This document shows, piece by piece, positions 932-50,218 of a stretch of DNA of 64,000 nt. Every line of letters starts with the position of its first letter. Position 1 is the first letter of the stretch. Source of the DNA: Escherichia coli (GTDB taxonomy: Bacteria; Pseudomonadota; Gammaproteobacteria; Enterobacterales; Enterobacteriaceae); the NCBI RefSeq assembly GCF_003018115.1, contig NZ_CP027457.1; one strand, written 5' to 3'. Under the pieces are notes generated by a model. That model worked only from the letters and a program-made list of their open reading frames with translations. It searched no databases and was not told where the DNA came from. A program made the translations under genes and the position numbers.

Positions 932-1726
932 ATGGATCTGTTGTACCGGGTAAAAACGCTTTGGGCCGCGCTGCGCGGTAATCATTACACCTGGCCTGCC
1001 ATCGATATCACCCTCCCCGGCAATCGCCATTTTCATCTGATTGGCAGTATTCATATGGGTAGCCACGATATGGCTCCCCTGCCCACCCGTTTGCTCAAAA
1101 AGCTCAAAAACGCCGATGCGCTGATCGTCGAGGCGGATGTTTCCACCAGCGATACGCCTTTTGCTAATTTGCCTACTTGCGAGGCGCTGGAAGAGCGCAT
1201 TAGCGAGGAGCAACTCCAAAATCTGCAGCACATTAGCCAGGAGATGGGCATTTCTCCGTCGCTCTTTTCTACTCAACCGCTGTGGCAAATCGCGATGGTT
1301 CTTCAGGCGACGCAGGCACAAAAACTGGGGCTGCGGGCAGAATACGGTATCGATTACCAGCTATTGCAGGCGGCGAAGCAACAACATAAACCCGTGATTG
1401 AACTGGAAGGGGCTGAAAACCAGATTGCCATGTTGCTCCAGCTCCCTGACAAAGGACTGGCGCTGCTGGACGATACGCTGACCCACTGGCATACCAACGC
1501 ACGGTTGCTGCAACAAATGATGAGCTGGTGGCTGAATGCGCCGCCGCAAAATAATGAAATAACGCTGCCCAATACGTTCAGTCAGTCGCTGTACGATGTG
1601 CTGATGCATCAGCGAAATCTCGCCTGGCGGGATAAATTACGCGCCATGCCGCCGGGGCGATATGTGGTCGCGGTCGGTGCACTACACCTGTATGGAGAAG
1701 GGAATTTACCGCAAATGTTGCGCTAA
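932..1726 (+). CDS. ybaP: TraB/GumN family protein YbaP (264 aa)
   Basis: ORF-track entry 932..1726, 264 aa; recognised N-terminus MDLLYRVKTLWAALRG; synteny. Confidence 0.93.
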   Translation: MDLLYRVKTLWAALRGNHYTWPAIDITLPGNRHFHLIGSIHMGSHDMAPLPTRLLKKLKNADALIVEADVSTSDTPFANLPTCEALEERISEEQLQNLQHISQEMGISPSLFSTQPLWQIAMVLQATQAQKLGLRAEYGIDYQLLQAAKQQHKPVIELEGAENQIAMLLQLPDKGLALLDDTLTHWHTNARLLQQMMSWWLNAPPQNNEITLPNTFSQSLYDVLMHQRNLAWRDKLRAMPPGRYVVAVGALHLYGEGNLPQMLR

Positions 1727-1808
1727 AAAAATGGCCAATATCGCTATTGGCCCGTCAAAGAGGAATTTCATTTTTTTATTATTATGCCGTCACTTTAAGC
1801 GACGGTGT
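1725..1808 (-). ncRNA. chiX: ChiX (MicM/SroB) small regulatory RNA
   Basis: Reverse complement of 1725-1808 reads acaccgtcgcttaaagtgacggcataataataaaaaaatgaaattcctctttgacgggccaatagcgatattggccattttttt, matching the recalled ChiX sequence including its terminator hairpin and U-tail; it lies in the ybaP-ybaK spacer as in K-12. Confidence 0.85.
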
Positions 1809-7484: not shown

Positions 7485-7568
7485 GTAGGCATGATAAGAC
7501 GCGCCAGCGTCGCATCAGGCATCGAGAGCCAAATGCCAGATGCGGCGTGAACGCCTTATCTGGCCTAC
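7485..7568. repeat. REP element pair (two inverted palindromic units) between ybaL and gsk
   Basis: gtaggcatgataagacgcgccagcgtcgcatcaggcat and gccagatgcggcgtgaacgccttatctggcctac are typical REP palindromes. Confidence 0.8.
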
Positions 7569-14884: not shown

Positions 14885-16816
14885 TCAAATGGGGCGGATA
14901 CTTTCTTCATCCAGCTCCGCATCGAAAAACCGACGCAGGGTCTGAATATTATTATCCGCAATAATGGACTCGCGCGCCTGCGCAAGTTTTTCTTCGTATA
15001 TCGCCTGACGCCACTCCAGCGGCGTACGCACCGCGGGATTATCATCTTCAACGATAGTCAGTTCAACCGTTGAACCTTTTAACATGCTCAACGCTTCAGC
15101 CAGTTTTTGCTGTGCACCGCGGTTGTTCAAATGCCGCTGAGAGGAGCGCAAATGCAGACATACTGCGTTATCACTCTCCTCTTTCCAGGCATTTAAGGCC
15201 ACCTGTTCGACCAGTTTTGGTAGCGAAAGTTGACTCACCTGAGCCGCCCACGGGTCGCGCTCAATGGCTTCTGCCGCCAGCTTCGCCGCCAGTTCCGGCG
15301 TTTTTTCATGTTCCAGCGCTTTTTTCAGCGCCTTCGGTGTGGCGACCACTTCTTTTTGCTGCATCACTGGAGTGGTCGCCTTCCAGCGATACGCTTCTTT
15401 TTTAGCTGGCGCTTTTTCCAGCGCCGATGGCACCGGACGCGCCTGAACGCGATCCGTGACCGAAGCCAGTCTTTCCAGCGCAGCGTTATTCACCGGCCGC
15501 GCGCGGGTAGCGGCTGCCGGTTCACTCTTTTTTGCTTTGGTTGCTCCCTGCACGCGCTGCAACTGCTGGCGCGCCGCCAGCACCTGGCTGGTGGTTTCTG
15601 AGAGCGGTACAGTCGGTGCCTGCTGCGCCGCTGATTGCGGTTGCGGCGGCACCTGGGTTGGCGTCATTACTGCCGTTGGCGCGACGGGTGCAAAGGACTG
15701 GCGTGGCACTTCTGGCTCAGGCAGCGGCATACGCGGATGGAACGCCAGCGCGCGCAGCAGCGTCATCTCAACGCCCATGCGGCGGTCCGGCGCATACGGT
15801 AATTCTTTGCGACCAATCAACAGCGTCTGATAGTAAAGCTGAATATCCGTCGGCGGTATGGTGCGCGCCAGTTCACGCATCCGCAGCTCGATGGCGGCCA
15901 TGTCGTTGCCAAGTGCAGCAGGCGAAAGTTGTACCATCGCAATACGATGCAACAGGCCGAGCATTTCCACCAGCAACGCTTCCCACTCGATACCACGGGC
16001 AGCGGCTTCATTAATCAGCGCCATTACGCGCTCGCCGTTGGCCTCGACCATCGCTTCAACCAGCGACAGCGCCTGATCGTCGTCAAGCGTACCCAGCATC
16101 GCACTGACCGCCTGGGTTGAAACCTGGCCGTCACCGCTGGCAATCGCCTGGTCGGTCAGACTTAAGGCATCTCGCAGGCTGCCTTCAGCGGCGCGCGCCA
16201 GCAATTGCAGCGCCCGCGGCTCGTGAGCGATATGTTCTTCATTGAGGATGTGCTCAAGTTGATGACGAATTTGCTCGACATCCAGCGCCTTGAGATGAAA
16301 TTGCAAACAGCGCGACAAAATCGTCACCGGCAATTTCTGTGGATCGGTCGTCGCCAGCAGAAACTTAACGTGCTCCGGCGGCTCTTCAAGAGTTTTTAAC
16401 AGTGCGTTAAAGCTGTGACGCGACAGCATATGCACTTCGTCGATGAGATAAACTTTGAAACGACCACGCGCCGGAGCGTACTGGACGTTATCCAGCAGGT
16501 CGCGGGTATCTTCAACTTTGGTGCGCGAGGCGGCGTCGATTTCAATCAGATCGACAAAGCGCCCCTGCTCGATTTCACGACAATTATCGCACACGCCGCA
16601 CGGCGTCGCGGTAATGCCGGTTTCGCAGTTTAGCCCCTTCGCCAGCAGTCGGGCGATAGAGGTTTTTCCGACGCCACGGGTACCGGAAAAAAGATAAGCA
16701 TGATGAATACGCCCTAACGACAAGCCGTTCGCCAGTGCGGTCAGCACATGTTCCTGGCCGACGACGTCAGCAAAGGTTTGTGGGCGCCATTTTCGGGCTA
16801 AGACCTGATAACTCAT
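14885..16816 (-). CDS. dnaX: DNA polymerase III tau subunit (643 aa); the gamma subunit is made from the same start by a programmed -1 frameshift
   Basis: ORF 14885..16816 (-); AAA+ Walker A motif GTRGVGKTS; recognised as DnaX. Confidence 0.97.
   Translation of the reverse strand: MSYQVLARKWRPQTFADVVGQEHVLTALANGLSLGRIHHAYLFSGTRGVGKTSIARLLAKGLNCETGITATPCGVCDNCREIEQGRFVDLIEIDAASRTKVEDTRDLLDNVQYAPARGRFKVYLIDEVHMLSRHSFNALLKTLEEPPEHVKFLLATTDPQKLPVTILSRCLQFHLKALDVEQIRHQLEHILNEEHIAHEPRALQLLARAAEGSLRDALSLTDQAIASGDGQVSTQAVSAMLGTLDDDQALSLVEAMVEANGERVMALINEAAARGIEWEALLVEMLGLLHRIAMVQLSPAALGNDMAAIELRMRELARTIPPTDIQLYYQTLLIGRKELPYAPDRRMGVEMTLLRALAFHPRMPLPEPEVPRQSFAPVAPTAVMTPTQVPPQPQSAAQQAPTVPLSETTSQVLAARQQLQRVQGATKAKKSEPAAATRARPVNNAALERLASVTDRVQARPVPSALEKAPAKKEAYRWKATTPVMQQKEVVATPKALKKALEHEKTPELAAKLAAEAIERDPWAAQVSQLSLPKLVEQVALNAWKEESDNAVCLHLRSSQRHLNNRGAQQKLAEALSMLKGSTVELTIVEDDNPAVRTPLEWRQAIYEEKLAQARESIIADNNIQTLRRFFDAELDEESIRPI
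15491..15533 (-). other. dnaX programmed -1 ribosomal frameshift cassette: slippery heptamer A AAA AAG (15527-15533), -1 frame UGA stop (15522-15524) and downstream stimulatory stem-loop (about 15491-15520)
   Basis: The minus strand reads gcaaccaaagcAAAAAAGagtgaaCCGGCAGCCGCtacccGCGCGCGGCCGGtg; the heptamer sits in the zero frame at tau codons 429-430 (..ATKAKKSEP..); after the slip the reading is GAG then UGA. Confidence 0.85.
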
Positions 16817-30283: not shown

Positions 30284-31840
30284 ATGCTGGTGAGAACACG
30301 ACATCTGGTCGGCCTTATTTCGGGAGTACTGATTCTTTCAGTATTGCTGCCTGTCGGCTTAAGCATCTGGCTGGCCCATCAGCAGGTAGAAACATCGTTT
30401 ATTGAAGAGCTGGATACCTATTCCTCCCGCGTCGCTATTCGGGGCAATAAGGTGGCGACACAAGGGAAAGATGCGCTGCAAGAGCTGGAAAGATGGCAAG
30501 GCGCTGCCTGTAGCGAAGCCCATCTCATGGAAATGCGTCGGGTATCTTACAGTTATCGCTATATTCAGGAAGTGGTTTATATCGATAACAACGTTCCCCA
30601 GTGTTCGTCTCTGGAGCATGAAAGTCCGCCCGATACCTTCCCCGAGCCAGGTAAAATTTCGAAAGATGGTTATCGTGTCTGGTTAACATCGCATAACGAT
30701 TTAGGCATTATCCGTTACATGGTCGCCATGGGAACGGCACATTATGTCGTCATGATCGACCCCGCTTCCTTTATTGATGTCATTCCCTATAGCTCATGGC
30801 AAATTGATGCCGCCATTATTGGCAATGCCCATAACGTTGTCATAACCAGCAGCGATGAAATTGCTCAGGGAATTATTACCAGGCTACAAAAAACACCCGG
30901 TGAGCATATCGAAAATAATGGAATCATTTACGATATCCTGCCCTTCCCGGAGATGAATATTTCGATCATCACCTGGGCTTCAACGAAAATGTTGCAGAAA
31001 GGCTGGCATCGGCAAGTCTTTATTTGGTTACCGCTCGGGTTGGTGATTGGCCTGCTGGCAGCGATGTTTGTGCTGCGTATTTTGCGCCGTATCCAGTCAC
31101 CGCATCATCGGCTGCAGGATGCTATCGAAAATCGTGATATTTGCGTGCACTATCAGCCGATTGTCTCCTTAGCCAATGGCAAAATTGTCGGTGCTGAGGC
31201 ACTGGCGCGCTGGCCGCAGACAGACGGTAGTTGGTTGTCACCAGATAGTTTTATTCCGCTGGCACAGCAAACGGGCCTTTCTGAGCCATTGACGCTACTG
31301 ATTATAAGAAGCGTCTTTGAAGATATGGGCGACTGGCTGCGTCAGCATCCACAGCAGCATATTTCGATCAATCTTGAATCCACCGTGCTCACCTCGGAAA
31401 AAATCCCGCAATTGCTGCGTGAAATGATCAATCACTATCAGGTTAATCCCAGACAGATCGCGCTTGAACTCACTGAACGCGAGTTTGCCGATCCGAAAAC
31501 CAGCGCCCCGATAATTTCTCGCTACCGGGAGGCGGGCCATGAAATTTATCTTGATGATTTTGGTACGGGATATTCAAGTTTAAGTTATTTACAGGATCTG
31601 GATGTCGACATTCTGAAGATCGATAAATCTTTCGTTGATGCGCTGGAATATAAAAATGTCACGCCGCATATCATCGAAATGGCAAAAACACTGAAACTGA
31701 AAATGGTAGCGGAGGGAATCGAAACCAGTAAACAAGAAGAGTGGCTACGCCAGCATGGCGTGCACTACGGTCAGGGCTGGCTCTACAGCAAGGCATTACC
31801 GAAAGAAGATTTCTTACGCTGGGCCGAGCAACATTTGTGA
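30284..31840 (+). CDS. pdeB: c-di-GMP phosphodiesterase PdeB (YlaB), periplasmic CSS domain plus EAL domain
   Basis: ORF 30284..31840; EAL-domain motifs (EALARW, DDFGTGYSSLSYL); the annotated start may be the GTG two codons downstream (30290), an uncertainty of 6 nt. Confidence 0.9.
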   Translation: MLVRTRHLVGLISGVLILSVLLPVGLSIWLAHQQVETSFIEELDTYSSRVAIRGNKVATQGKDALQELERWQGAACSEAHLMEMRRVSYSYRYIQEVVYIDNNVPQCSSLEHESPPDTFPEPGKISKDGYRVWLTSHNDLGIIRYMVAMGTAHYVVMIDPASFIDVIPYSSWQIDAAIIGNAHNVVITSSDEIAQGIITRLQKTPGEHIENNGIIYDILPFPEMNISIITWASTKMLQKGWHRQVFIWLPLGLVIGLLAAMFVLRILRRIQSPHHRLQDAIENRDICVHYQPIVSLANGKIVGAEALARWPQTDGSWLSPDSFIPLAQQTGLSEPLTLLIIRSVFEDMGDWLRQHPQQHISINLESTVLTSEKIPQLLREMINHYQVNPRQIALELTEREFADPKTSAPIISRYREAGHEIYLDDFGTGYSSLSYLQDLDVDILKIDKSFVDALEYKNVTPHIIEMAKTLKLKMVAEGIETSKQEEWLRQHGVHYGQGWLYSKALPKEDFLRWAEQHL

Positions 31841-31881: not shown

Positions 31882-32235
31882 CTATTCGTCGATGATTGAC
31901 TCGAATCCGCCATAGATCATTCGCTTGCCGTCAAACGGCATGGACTCGCCGAACTCTTTCATCCGTGGGTCCGACATCATCTTTTGATTAGCAGCGTCGC
32001 GGACCTCTTTTGAAGGGTATTCAATCCAGCTAAAGACAACCTCTTCATTCTCTTCCGCTTTCACCGCCATACGAAAATCGGTCACTTTGCCATCCGGTAC
32101 ATCGCTGGCCCAGCATTCGACAATACGAAGCGCGCCAAACTCTTTAAACAATGGCGCAGCCTTAGCGGCCATTTCCCGATAGGCATCCTTTTTATCGGCA
32201 GGAACGGCAACCACAAAACCATCAACATACTTCAT
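31882..32235 (-). CDS. ybaA: DUF1428-family protein YbaA (117 aa)
   Basis: ORF 31882..32235 (-), 117 aa; recognised N-terminus MKYVDGFVVAVPADKKDAYREMAAKAAPLFKEFGALRIVECW. Confidence 0.92.
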   Translation of the reverse strand: MKYVDGFVVAVPADKKDAYREMAAKAAPLFKEFGALRIVECWASDVPDGKVTDFRMAVKAEENEEVVFSWIEYPSKEVRDAANQKMMSDPRMKEFGESMPFDGKRMIYGGFESIIDE

Positions 32236-32345: not shown

Positions 32346-32459
32346 GGGTGGGGGCCCTGCCAGCTACATCCCGGCACACGCGTCATCTGCCTTGGCTGCT
32401 TCCTTCCGGACCTGACCTGGTAAACAGAGTAGCGTTGCGGGAGAACCAACAGAGCCCCC
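32346..32459 (-). ncRNA. ffs: 4.5S RNA, the signal recognition particle RNA
   Basis: The reverse complement reads GGGGGCUCUGUUGGUUCUCCCGCAACGCUACUCUGUUUACCAGGUCAGGUCCGGAAGGAAGCAGCCAAGGCAGAUGACGCGUGUGCCGGGAUGUAGCUGGCAGGGCCCCCACCC, the E. coli 4.5S RNA with its conserved domain IV. Confidence 0.95.
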
Positions 32460-32535
32460 ATTGAGAGCGTTGAGAACCAACGCGCAGGCGCATTATCACT
32501 GCTGCCCCGGCTAATTGCAACCCATCGCGTGCCAG

Positions 32536-32925
32536 ATGCTGGTTTCTTGCGCAATGCGACTTCACTCGGGCGTTTTTCCAGATTATGCTGAAAAATTACC
32601 TCAGGAAGAAAAGATGGAAAAAGAAGATTCATTTCCCCAACGCGTCTGGCAAATCGTCGCCGCTATTCCCGAAGGCTATGTCACCACTTACGGTGATGTG
32701 GCGAAACTGGCGGGATCGCCCCGCGCCGCGCGCCAGGTGGGCGGTGTGTTAAAGCGTCTCCCTGAAGGCAGCACCTTACCCTGGCACCGGGTGGTTAATC
32801 GCCACGGCACAATTTCGCTAACCGGACCGGATTTACAGCGTCAGCGACAGGCATTACTGGCAGAAGGTGTGATGGTATCGGGAAGCGGGCAAATCGACTT
32901 GCAGCGTTATCGCTGGAACTACTAA
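32536..32925 (+). CDS. atl: Alkyltransferase-like protein Atl (YbaZ), 129 aa; O6-alkylguanine-binding, non-catalytic
   Basis: ORF 32515..32925 trimmed to ATG 32536 (MLVSCAMRLHSG...); the MGMT-fold motif reads PWHRVV, with Trp in place of the catalytic Cys of PCHRV. Confidence 0.9.
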   Translation: MLVSCAMRLHSGVFPDYAEKLPQEEKMEKEDSFPQRVWQIVAAIPEGYVTTYGDVAKLAGSPRAARQVGGVLKRLPEGSTLPWHRVVNRHGTISLTGPDLQRQRQALLAEGVMVSGSGQIDLQRYRWNY

Positions 32926-32955
32926 CCCTCTCCGGGCGGAGAGGGTTAACGTCGC

Positions 32956-33528
32956 TTAATATTGCGTAGGAGCTGGAACTGCCGAAGACGGATTCACCTG
33001 AGTTGGTGAAGTCGAAGGTACGGTAGTCGTTGCACCACCGCTGGCCTGAACCGGCACGGCGGTTTGCTGCACCGGCACCAATGTCAGGTCGGCTTTAGTT
33101 CCGCCCTTGTTGATCACCGGCTGAACGGTATCGGTAATAAATACCAGTTTGTCATTCACGGTAATCGCCGCACTCAACAGAATACGCGCGTTCGGCTGAA
33201 CATCTGCCGGATTAAATGGCAGAACAAAGCTGAATGGTGACTGTTTACCTTCGGTACGCACCGCTTTCTGCGCCAGCACTTTTGACGGTGCATCGGCTAA
33301 CGACGCGTCAGAAAGTGTCACGGTCAGCACAGCATCAGGCGGCAGTGCGACTTTCTGCCGGATCCAGACGGTACCGGAGACATTCGGTTGCTGGATAGCA
33401 GGTTGTTGTGTTGCTGAAATAGACGTATTTGCAGCCGGGGCTGGCGTCTGAATATCCGCGCTTTTATCTGCGCAAGCCGCCAACGCAATCGCAACCGCTA
33501 AACCACTGGCCATGTGCACGAGTTTCAT
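32956..33528 (-). CDS. ybaY: Lipoprotein YbaY (190 aa)
   Basis: ORF 32956..33528 (-); signal peptide with lipobox LAAC (MKLVHMASGLAVAIALAACADK). Confidence 0.92.
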   Translation of the reverse strand: MKLVHMASGLAVAIALAACADKSADIQTPAPAANTSISATQQPAIQQPNVSGTVWIRQKVALPPDAVLTVTLSDASLADAPSKVLAQKAVRTEGKQSPFSFVLPFNPADVQPNARILLSAAITVNDKLVFITDTVQPVINKGGTKADLTLVPVQQTAVPVQASGGATTTVPSTSPTQVNPSSAVPAPTQY

Positions 33529-50031: not shown

Positions 50032-50114
50032 AGAGCTCTCTCTTAGTTTAATTTCCGCCAGGTAATCAGATGACACGACTGTGCTTCACGCCATCTATTA
50101 ACATGTACGTCAGT

Positions 50115-50149
50115 ATATGGGGATGTTTCCCCCACATTCAACGCCGAGA
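50115..50149 (-). promoter_or_regulatory. sigma32 heat-shock promoter of lon
   Basis: The minus strand reads tctcggcgTTGAAtgtgggggaaacatCCCCATATa, matching the sigma32 -35 and CCCCATnT -10, about 85 nt upstream of the lon ATG. Confidence 0.7.
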
Positions 50150-50151
50150 AT

Positions 50152-50187
50152 AGAGGAAAAATTAAAGGGGAGATAAAATCCCCCCTT
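50152..50187 (-). terminator. Terminator downstream of clpX
   Basis: On the minus strand, hairpin aggggggattttatctcccct is followed by ttaatttttcc. Confidence 0.65.
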
Positions 50188-50218
50188 TTTGGTTAACTAA
50201 TTGTATGGGAATGGTTAA

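What the first reader, a model, noticed from the sequence alone, without database searches (positions are those of the whole stretch)
32536..32925. Atl: an MGMT-fold protein with the catalytic cysteine replaced by tryptophan (PWHRV)
Where O6-alkylguanine alkyltransferases carry PCHRV, this ORF reads PWHRVV, so it can bind but not repair alkylated guanine. This is the known alkyltransferase-like damage-sensor class that hands lesions to nucleotide excision repair, and the substitution is directly visible in the sequence.
Basis: partly seen in the sequence, partly recalled or inferred. Interest (0 to 1): 0.3.

Follow-up and report, generated by a model that had tools for sequence, protein, structure and literature searches.

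The report
E. coli Atl (YbaZ) damage sensor

Summary
The ORF 32536..32925 (+) is nucleotide-for-nucleotide identical to E. coli K-12 b0454 ybaZ/atl ("DNA base-flipping protein", 129 aa). It matches the AGT DNA-binding domain (PF01035, E 3.9e-27). Its best solved relatives are the two ATL structures, Vibrio vpAtl and S. pombe Atl1. In a gap-free alignment with E. coli Ogt and Ada, Trp83 lies exactly on the acceptor Cys of PCHRV. The conserved core contains no cysteine at all. It also shows the other ATL hallmarks: no AGT N-terminal domain, Tyr52 and Arg66 retained, Leu at the Asn-hinge position, and a C-terminal extension. Published work on this very protein shows no transferase activity, tight O6-alkylguanine binding and UvrA/UvrC interaction. 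One refinement concerns the start. Five lines of evidence favour the ATG at 32614 (103 aa, the RefSeq/PGAP call) over 32536: invariant Met27, a conserved Shine-Dalgarno, no upstream in-frame start in Klebsiella or Raoultella, non-coding substitution pattern in codons 1-26, and pLDDT below 50 there. The ATG at 32536 sits 16 nt from the ffs promoter -35. Interest is low.

The parts
32614..32925 (+). Conserved Atl core CDS (103 aa, Met27 to Tyr129 in K-12 numbering). This is the most likely real coding region and is the RefSeq/PGAP call.
   Evidence: PGAP CDS WP_000409911.1 maps to 32614..32925. Met27 is invariant in 16 enterobacterial homologues. AF2 pLDDT is above 90 for residues 31-129. E. coli/Salmonella differences by codon position are 11/6/53.
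32536..32613 (+). 26-codon N-terminal extension of the K-12/UniProt annotation (129-aa form). It is probably the atl promoter and 5' UTR rather than coding sequence.
   Evidence: K-12 b0454 is 390 nt. The extension is poorly conserved and carries indels. Codon-position differences are 11/6/7, with Fisher p 1.3e-4 against the core. Raoultella and Klebsiella have no in-frame start upstream. pLDDT is below 50. No Shine-Dalgarno precedes 32536.
32603..32608 (+). Shine-Dalgarno-like AGGAAG, 5 nt (AGGA: 7 nt) before the ATG at 32614.
   Evidence: Read directly. AGGA or GGAG is found 6-9 nt upstream of the core ATG in all five genera compared.
32779..32793 (+). P-W-H-R-V motif (Pro82 to Val86). Trp83 (32782-32784) replaces the acceptor Cys of AGTs.
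   Evidence: Aligned to PCHRV of Ogt and Ada and of M. tuberculosis OGT. W83 is invariant in 19 ATL sequences including Vibrio and S. pombe.
32689..32733 (+). Helix-turn-helix segment carrying Tyr52 (32689-32691) and the arginine finger Arg66 (32731-32733).
   Evidence: Y52 and R66 are invariant across Atl, Ogt, Ada, vpAtl and Atl1. Helices 52-58 and 65-73 appear in the AF2 model. [quoted passage not shown]
32758..32760 (+). Leu75, at the position of the AGT asparagine hinge (8 residues before the Cys/Trp).
   Evidence: Alignment A1 pairs RLPEGSTLPW with SNPISIVVPC of Ogt. L75 is invariant in ATLs. The review states the Asn hinge is missing in ATLs.
32872..32922 (+). ATL-specific C-terminal extension (residues 113-129), absent from Ogt and Ada.
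   Evidence: A1 shows Ogt and Ada ending where Atl, vpAtl and Atl1 continue, with conserved Y125 and W127. The review describes a C-terminal extension loop that contacts DNA.
32923..32948 (.). Hairpin with an 11-bp stem, between the convergent atl and ybaY genes. It is probably a shared terminator.
   Evidence: MFE -20 kcal/mol, z -3.6 against shuffles.
32346..32459 (-). ffs (4.5S / SRP RNA), the divergent neighbour of atl.
   Evidence: Exact match to K-12 ffs. Rfam RF00169, 68.1 bits.
32492..32520 (-). Sigma-70-like promoter of ffs (-35 TTGCAA at 32520..32515; -10 GATAAT at 32497..32492). It lies 16 nt from the ATG at 32536.
   Evidence: Promoter scan, 9 of 12 matches. Both hexamers are conserved in Salmonella, Raoultella and Buttiauxella.

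Best explanation
This is E. coli atl (ybaZ), an alkyltransferase-like (ATL) protein. It is a stand-alone copy of the C-terminal DNA-binding and base-flipping domain of O6-alkylguanine-DNA alkyltransferases. It uses the conserved helix-turn-helix, the Arg66 finger and Tyr52 to flip O6-alkylguanine into a pocket. Where the acceptor cysteine should be there is Trp83, so no alkyl transfer can occur. Instead it stays tightly bound, bends the DNA and recruits UvrA/UvrC, which routes O6-alkylguanines (especially bulkier ones) into nucleotide excision repair. Fold, motif register and identity with K-12 ybaZ are shown here. Binding, lack of catalysis and the link to excision repair are taken from the literature on this same protein. 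The native protein is most likely the 103-aa form starting at 32614; that point is inferred from comparative evidence.
For: Identity and distribution:
- 0 nt differences from K-12 b0454.
- Present in 5424 of 5426 complete E. coli genomes.
- K-12 annotates it as 'DNA base-flipping protein'.

Family and fold:
- PF01035 E 3.9e-27.
- Only the C-terminal 88-169 of the 171-position Ogt model is matched, well below the equivalog cutoff (44 against 192 bits).
- The best solved relatives are ATLs: 2kif at 1.8e-28 and 3gva at 1.7e-17.
- The AF2 core has pLDDT above 90, and Foldseek's top hits are 2kif (TM 0.89, rmsd 1.5), 3gva and 3gx4.

Motif and hallmarks:
- W83 sits on the Cys of PCHRV, Y52, R66 and E110 are invariant across Atl, Ogt, Ada, vpAtl and Atl1 (H84 is Phe in vpAtl), L75 sits at the Asn hinge, and there is a C-terminal extension.
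- The core 27-129 contains no cysteine.

Selection: the core differs from Salmonella mostly at third codon positions (11/6/53) with 87% aa identity.

Literature on this protein (review PMC10779285; also PMC7835731 and PMC6449902):
- No transferase, glycosylase or endonuclease activity.
- W-to-C does not restore activity.
- Nanomolar or tighter O6-alkylG binding.
- UvrA/UvrC interaction and co-translocation.
- Enhancement of NER and prevention of MMR toxicity.

Start at 32614.
Against: Nothing found here contradicts the ATL assignment. The genomic context gives no independent support for an excision-repair link: the neighbours are ffs, ybaY, ybaA and tesB, and there are no uvr genes. On the start site, the 129-aa ORF stays open without indels in E. 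coli, Salmonella and some Citrobacter. K-12 and UniProt-style annotation keeps 129 aa. A minor longer isoform in that lineage is therefore not excluded.
Confidence: 0.97

Rival explanations
1. It is a functional O6-alkylguanine alkyltransferase whose real acceptor cysteine lies elsewhere, because the motif was read out of register.
For: It is homologous to Ogt and Ada. His84, Arg85 and Glu110 of the AGT active-site network are retained.
Against: The alignments are gap-free through the motif and place W83 on the Cys. The conserved core has no cysteine at all; the only Cys (C5) is in the doubtful N-terminal extension. The N-terminal AGT domain and the Asn hinge are absent. Published assays on E. 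coli ATL find no transferase activity, even after W-to-C.
Confidence: 0.01
2. It is a decaying remnant (pseudogene) of an alkyltransferase, with no function of its own.
For: It lacks both the catalytic residue and the N-terminal domain. It is a short gene.
Against: It is present in 5424 of 5426 E. coli genomes. The core is 84-90% identical across Enterobacteriaceae, with 64 invariant positions. Third-position differences dominate against Salmonella (53 of 70). W83 is conserved out to Vibrio and fission yeast. Phenotypes and biochemistry have been published.
Confidence: 0.01
3. The native protein is the 129-aa form starting at 32536, as in K-12 and as marked by the first reader. It would carry a lineage-specific disordered N-terminal tail.
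For: The K-12 reference annotation has it. The ORF is open and indel-free between E. coli, Salmonella and some Citrobacter, and MLVSCA is conserved. The DNA block around the ATG at 32536 is conserved.
Against: - There is no Shine-Dalgarno before 32536, whereas a conserved one precedes 32614.
- The ATG lies 16 nt from the -35 of the divergent ffs promoter, which can explain the DNA conservation.
- Codon-position differences of 11/6/7 are not coding-like (p 1.3e-4).
- Klebsiella and Raoultella cannot make such an extension.
- In Buttiauxella the ATG is GTG, and the sequences between differ by indels.
- pLDDT is below 50.
- PGAP chooses 32614.
- vpAtl and Atl1 begin at the Met27-equivalent position.
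Confidence: 0.15

Closest known systems
E. coli K-12 Atl / YbaZ (b0454, 'DNA base-flipping protein', eATL)
   Same: Identical: 0 nucleotide and 0 amino-acid differences over 390 nt. The neighbours are the same: pdeB, ybaA, ffs, atl, ybaY, tesB.
   Different: Nothing differs in sequence. Only the annotated start differs between K-12 (129 aa) and RefSeq/PGAP (103 aa).
Vibrio parahaemolyticus vpAtl (PDB 2kif/2kim)
   Same: 52% identity over residues 31-128, E 1.8e-28. The model superposes with TM 0.89 and rmsd 1.5 A. It has the same PW-RV motif position, the same LPEGS capping-loop sequence and the same C-terminal extension.
   Different: vpAtl has PWFRV (Phe instead of His84) and has no counterpart of the 26-residue extension.
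Schizosaccharomyces pombe Atl1 (PDB 3gva, 3gx4 with DNA)
   Same: About 40% identity, E 1.7e-17. It has PWHRV, the Tyr and Arg finger, and no N-terminal domain. It links O6-alkylguanine to NER.
   Different: It is eukaryotic. It has small insertions in the C-terminal part and partners with the eukaryotic NER machinery (Rad13/XPG).
E. coli Ogt and Ada C-terminal domain; human MGMT/AGT
   Same: They share the C-terminal domain fold with HTH, Tyr, Arg finger, His-Arg-Val and Glu (33-36% identity).
   Different: They have the acceptor Cys (PCHRV), the Asn hinge and an N-terminal domain, and they carry out suicide alkyl transfer. Atl has Trp83 and Leu75, no N-terminal domain and an added C-terminal loop.

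Membership tests
Alkyltransferase-like (ATL) proteins | Homology to, and fold of, the AGT C-terminal DNA-binding domain | tested here: met
   PF01035 E 3.9e-27 covering 2-81 of 81 model positions. AF2 core pLDDT is above 90, and the Foldseek top hits are ATL and AGT structures.
Alkyltransferase-like (ATL) proteins | Acceptor cysteine of PCHRV replaced (Trp in most ATLs) | tested here: met
   W83 aligns with the Cys of Ogt, Ada and M. tuberculosis OGT without gaps. The core has no Cys.
Alkyltransferase-like (ATL) proteins | No AGT N-terminal domain | tested here: met
   Only positions 88-169 of 171 of the Ogt model and 270-345 of 354 of the Ada model are matched. The protein is 103-129 aa, and residues 1-29 are unstructured and unconserved.
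Alkyltransferase-like (ATL) proteins | HTH with arginine finger and conserved tyrosine for base flipping | tested here: met
   Y52 and R66 are invariant in A1 and A3. Helices 52-58 and 65-73 are in the model.
Alkyltransferase-like (ATL) proteins | Asparagine hinge missing (capping loop) and a C-terminal extension loop | tested here: met
   Leu75 occupies the Asn position. Residues 113-129 extend beyond the ends of Ogt and Ada and align with vpAtl and Atl1. The features are as described in the review.
Alkyltransferase-like (ATL) proteins | No alkyl transfer, tight O6-alkylguanine binding, interaction with UvrA/UvrC and enhancement of NER | not testable with these tools
   Reported for this exact E. 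coli protein in the literature summarised in PMC10779285, PMC7835731 and PMC6449902. The sequence here is identical to K-12.
O6-alkylguanine-DNA alkyltransferases (Ogt/Ada-C/MGMT) | Acceptor cysteine in the PCHRV motif | tested here: not met
   Trp is at that column. NCBIfam Ogt and Ada equivalog scores are far below their cutoffs: 44 against 192 and 37 against 345.
O6-alkylguanine-DNA alkyltransferases (Ogt/Ada-C/MGMT) | Two-domain architecture with an N-terminal domain | tested here: not met
   No match to the N-terminal parts of the Ogt or Ada models.

The most novel reading that the evidence does not exclude
The reference (K-12/UniProt-style) 129-aa model of Atl is mis-started. The native protein would be the 103-aa core from 32614. 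Positions 32536-32613 would instead hold a small atl promoter, with a conserved TATNCT -10-like block at 32584-32589, packed back-to-back with the ffs promoter. If so, recombinant 'full-length' eATL made from the 129-aa ORF carries 26 non-native residues. RefSeq/PGAP already uses the short start, so this would correct an annotation and would not be a discovery.
Probability: 0.8. Interest if true: 0.15.

Novelty: already known. Interest (0 to 1): 0.08.

Why it matters
It matters little as a discovery. Atl/YbaZ has been characterised biochemically, genetically, structurally (through homologues) and at the single-molecule level since 2005. The practical value is a confirmed annotation for this window. 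There is also a reminder that the legacy 129-aa start is probably wrong, which is relevant to anyone expressing eATL or interpreting the tight ffs-atl divergent promoter region.

Tried and rejected
- **Register error or hidden cysteine.** Rejected by three independent alignments and by the absence of cysteine in the core.
- **Pseudogene.** Rejected on conservation and codon-position pattern.
- **Operon context linking atl to uvr or alkylation genes.** None was found. The neighbours are ffs, ybaA, ybaY and tesB.
- **Primary papers.** I tried to read Pearson 2005 PMC1175458, Aramini 2010 PMC2859536, Mazon 2010 PMC2964255 and Tubbs 2009 PMC2729916, to see which protein length was expressed. None is held in the library, so the literature claims rest on reviews.
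- **Start-site evidence in papers.** A search for 'ybaZ' plus 'start codon' gave nothing relevant.
- **Promoter scan.** It found no + strand promoter at its 9-of-12 threshold. The atl promoter proposal (TTCACT-N17-TATGCT, 8 of 12) comes only from my own reading.
- **Odd E. coli-like variants.** Those with unusual N-termini (P0001, P0010, P0014, P0018) look like assembly or frameshift artefacts and were not used.

Full report
**Where the window comes from.** The 801 bases around the finding match E. coli chromosomes at 100% identity and are present in 5424 of 5426 complete genomes. The local gene order is pdeB (30284..31840, +), ybaA (31882..32235, -), ffs (32346..32459, -), the finding (+), ybaY (32956..33528, -) and tesB (+). 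This is the K-12 region b0452-b0457 in reverse orientation.

**The observation.** The ORF 32536..32925 (+) translates to 129 aa containing ...EGSTLPWHRVVNRHG..., with Trp83 encoded by TGG at 32782-32784. It has 0 nucleotide differences from K-12 b0454 ybaZ, which is annotated 'DNA base-flipping protein'. The similarity to alkyltransferases is far beyond chance:
- Pfam PF01035 scores E 3.9e-27 and spans the whole 81-position model.
- The best solved relatives are the two ATL structures, Vibrio parahaemolyticus vpAtl (2kif, E 1.8e-28, 52% identity) and S. pombe Atl1 (3gva, E 1.7e-17). Genuine AGTs follow at about 1e-9 to 1e-10.

I fetched E. coli K-12 ogt and ada and aligned them with the ORF, vpAtl and Atl1 (A1).
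- From the helix-turn-helix to the motif there is no gap in any sequence, and Trp83 occupies the column of the Cys in PCHRV of both Ogt and Ada.
- HMMER independently pairs 'lpwhrvv' with 'vpchrvi' of M. tuberculosis OGT.
- The conserved core (residues 27-129) contains no cysteine at all, so no alternative acceptor is possible.

The motif is therefore in register and the refutation fails.

**Other ATL hallmarks.**
- Tyr52, Arg66 (the arginine finger), Arg85, Val86 and Glu110 are invariant between Atl, Ogt, Ada, vpAtl and Atl1; His84 is shared by all but vpAtl, which has Phe.
- Leu75 lies 8 residues before Trp83, at the position of the AGT asparagine hinge (SNPISIVVPC in Ogt against RLPEGSTLPW here).
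- Residues 113-129 extend beyond the C-termini of Ogt and Ada and align with vpAtl and Atl1, with Tyr125 and Trp127 invariant.
- Only the C-terminal halves of the Ogt and Ada models are matched, with scores far below the equivalog cutoffs: 44 against 192 bits and 37 against 345 bits. There is no AGT N-terminal domain.
- An AlphaFold2 model built on a 19-sequence alignment has pLDDT above 90 for residues 31-129. Foldseek ranks vpAtl first (TM 0.89 on the target, rmsd 1.5 A), then Atl1 free and DNA-bound, then AGTs from M. tuberculosis, human, Sulfolobus and Ada-C.

**What it does.** The mechanism cannot be tested with these tools, but it has been published for this exact protein. According to the 2023 review PMC10779285:
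- ATLs lack the N-terminal domain and the active-site cysteine, which is Trp in E. coli ATL and Atl1.
- E. coli ATL has no alkyltransferase, glycosylase or endonuclease activity.
- W-to-C in PWHRV does not restore activity.
- The Asn hinge is replaced by a capping loop.
- Binding to O6-alkylguanine is nanomolar or tighter, and the DNA is bent by about 45 degrees.
- E. coli ATL binds UvrA (KD about 100 nM, co-translocation on DNA) and UvrC.

PMC7835731 and PMC6449902 summarise Mazon et al. They report that the ybaZ product enhances NER of O6-alkylguanine adducts and prevents mismatch-repair-mediated toxicity. One nuance is that loss of the Cys is not the only reason for inactivity.

**It is not a pseudogene.** The core is 84-90% identical across Enterobacteriaceae, with 64 invariant positions in 16 sequences. 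Against Salmonella the core differs at codon positions 1/2/3 by 11/6/53 nucleotides, with 87% amino-acid identity.

**Refinement of the start codon.** K-12 annotates 129 aa from 32536. RefSeq/PGAP annotates 103 aa from 32614 (locus 3315 corresponds to window 32614). Several lines of evidence favour 32614:
1. Met27 is invariant in all 16 enterobacterial homologues. Residues 1-26 are poorly conserved, carry indels, and are absent from most annotated homologues.
2. vpAtl and Atl1 start at the Met27-equivalent position.
3. In Raoultella and Klebsiella there is no in-frame ATG, GTG or TTG upstream of the core ATG.
4. An AGGA or GGAG Shine-Dalgarno lies 6-9 nt before the core ATG in all five genera. 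In the window it is AGGAAG at 32603-32608. Nothing comparable precedes 32536.
5. E. coli/Salmonella differences in codons 1-26 are 11/6/7 by codon position, with 50% amino-acid identity. That is not coding-like, and Fisher p is 1.3e-4 against the core.
6. AF2 gives pLDDT below 50 for residues 1-29.
7. The ATG at 32536 lies only 16 nt from the -35 hexamer of a sigma-70-like promoter on the minus strand (-35 TTGCAA at 32520..32515, -10 GATAAT at 32497..32492). That promoter is conserved across genera and is placed to give ffs a leader of about 24-26 nt. This fits what I recall from general knowledge about the RNase P-processed 4.5S precursor; it was not tested here.

The conserved DNA around 32536 can thus be explained by promoter function. 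A block TTAT-N-CTG at 32583-32590 is conserved in all five genera even though its distance to the core ATG is 33 nt in E. coli and 37 nt in Raoultella, so the reading frames differ. That argues for a DNA-level element. I read it as a candidate atl -10 (TATGCT) with a weak -35 (TTCACT, 17-nt spacer). This is my inference and falls below the scan's threshold. The long form is not excluded in the E. coli/Salmonella/Citrobacter lineage, where the ORF remains open. I give it about 15%.

**Surroundings.** atl and ybaY converge on a 30-nt spacer containing a hairpin with an 11-bp stem (32923..32948; -20 kcal/mol; z -3.6), which is probably a shared terminator. No repair genes are adjacent, so context adds nothing to the functional assignment.

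**Verdict.** It is the type bacterial ATL gene. The only added value is the start-site correction, which RefSeq has already made. Interest is low.

Noticed in passing
window 32536-32613: The K-12 reference annotation (129 aa) and RefSeq/PGAP (103 aa, start 32614) disagree on the atl start. Comparative, Shine-Dalgarno, codon-position and pLDDT evidence all favour the short form.
   Followed up: yes
window 32346-32520 (-): ffs (4.5S SRP RNA) lies divergent to atl. A conserved sigma-70-like promoter (-35 at 32520..32515, -10 at 32497..32492) implies a 5' leader of about 24-26 nt. It leaves under 100 bp for the atl promoter and 5' UTR.
   Followed up: partly
window 32534-32552 and 32583-32590: Two short DNA blocks (GATGCTGGTTTCTTGCGCA and TTATGCTG) are conserved across E. 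coli, Salmonella, Raoultella and Buttiauxella, and the second also in Klebsiella. Indels change the reading frame between them and the core ATG. They are candidate regulatory or promoter elements for atl or ffs.
   Followed up: partly
window 32923-32948: A strong GC-rich hairpin (11-bp stem, -20 kcal/mol, z -3.6) fills the 30-nt gap between the convergent atl and ybaY genes. It is a likely bidirectional terminator, though it lacks a T-run and the terminator scan did not call it.
   Followed up: partly
window 32352-32366 (inside ffs): A Salmonella ChIP-seq study (PMC10268841) lists a MarA/RamA/SoxS peak 'ybaZ' with the marbox GCCCTGCCAGCTACA. That sequence lies inside the ffs gene, not in atl or its promoter, so the assignment to ybaZ is doubtful.
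   Followed up: no
L007 (Klebsiella quasipneumoniae) 728-1200; L006 (Raoultella) upstream of 1201: The ffs-atl spacing is not fixed. Raoultella carries an insertion of roughly 100 nt between the ffs promoter and atl. In K. quasipneumoniae the 290 nt upstream of atl do not align with ffs at all, and a 135-aa ORF is called there.
   Followed up: no
window 15488-15552 (-), 50103-50198 (+), 1725-1808 (-), 148-427 and 7488-7565: Other Rfam matches in the window are all expected for this E. coli region: the dnaX programmed-frameshift element, sraA, sroB, and clusters of naRNA4/REP-type repeats.
   Followed up: no
proteins P0001, P0010, P0014, P0018: A few database E. coli-like Atl entries have duplicated or frameshifted N-terminal or C-terminal segments. 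One example is P0001, with a repeated MEKEDSF...TTY block. They are probably assembly or sequencing artefacts.
   Followed up: no
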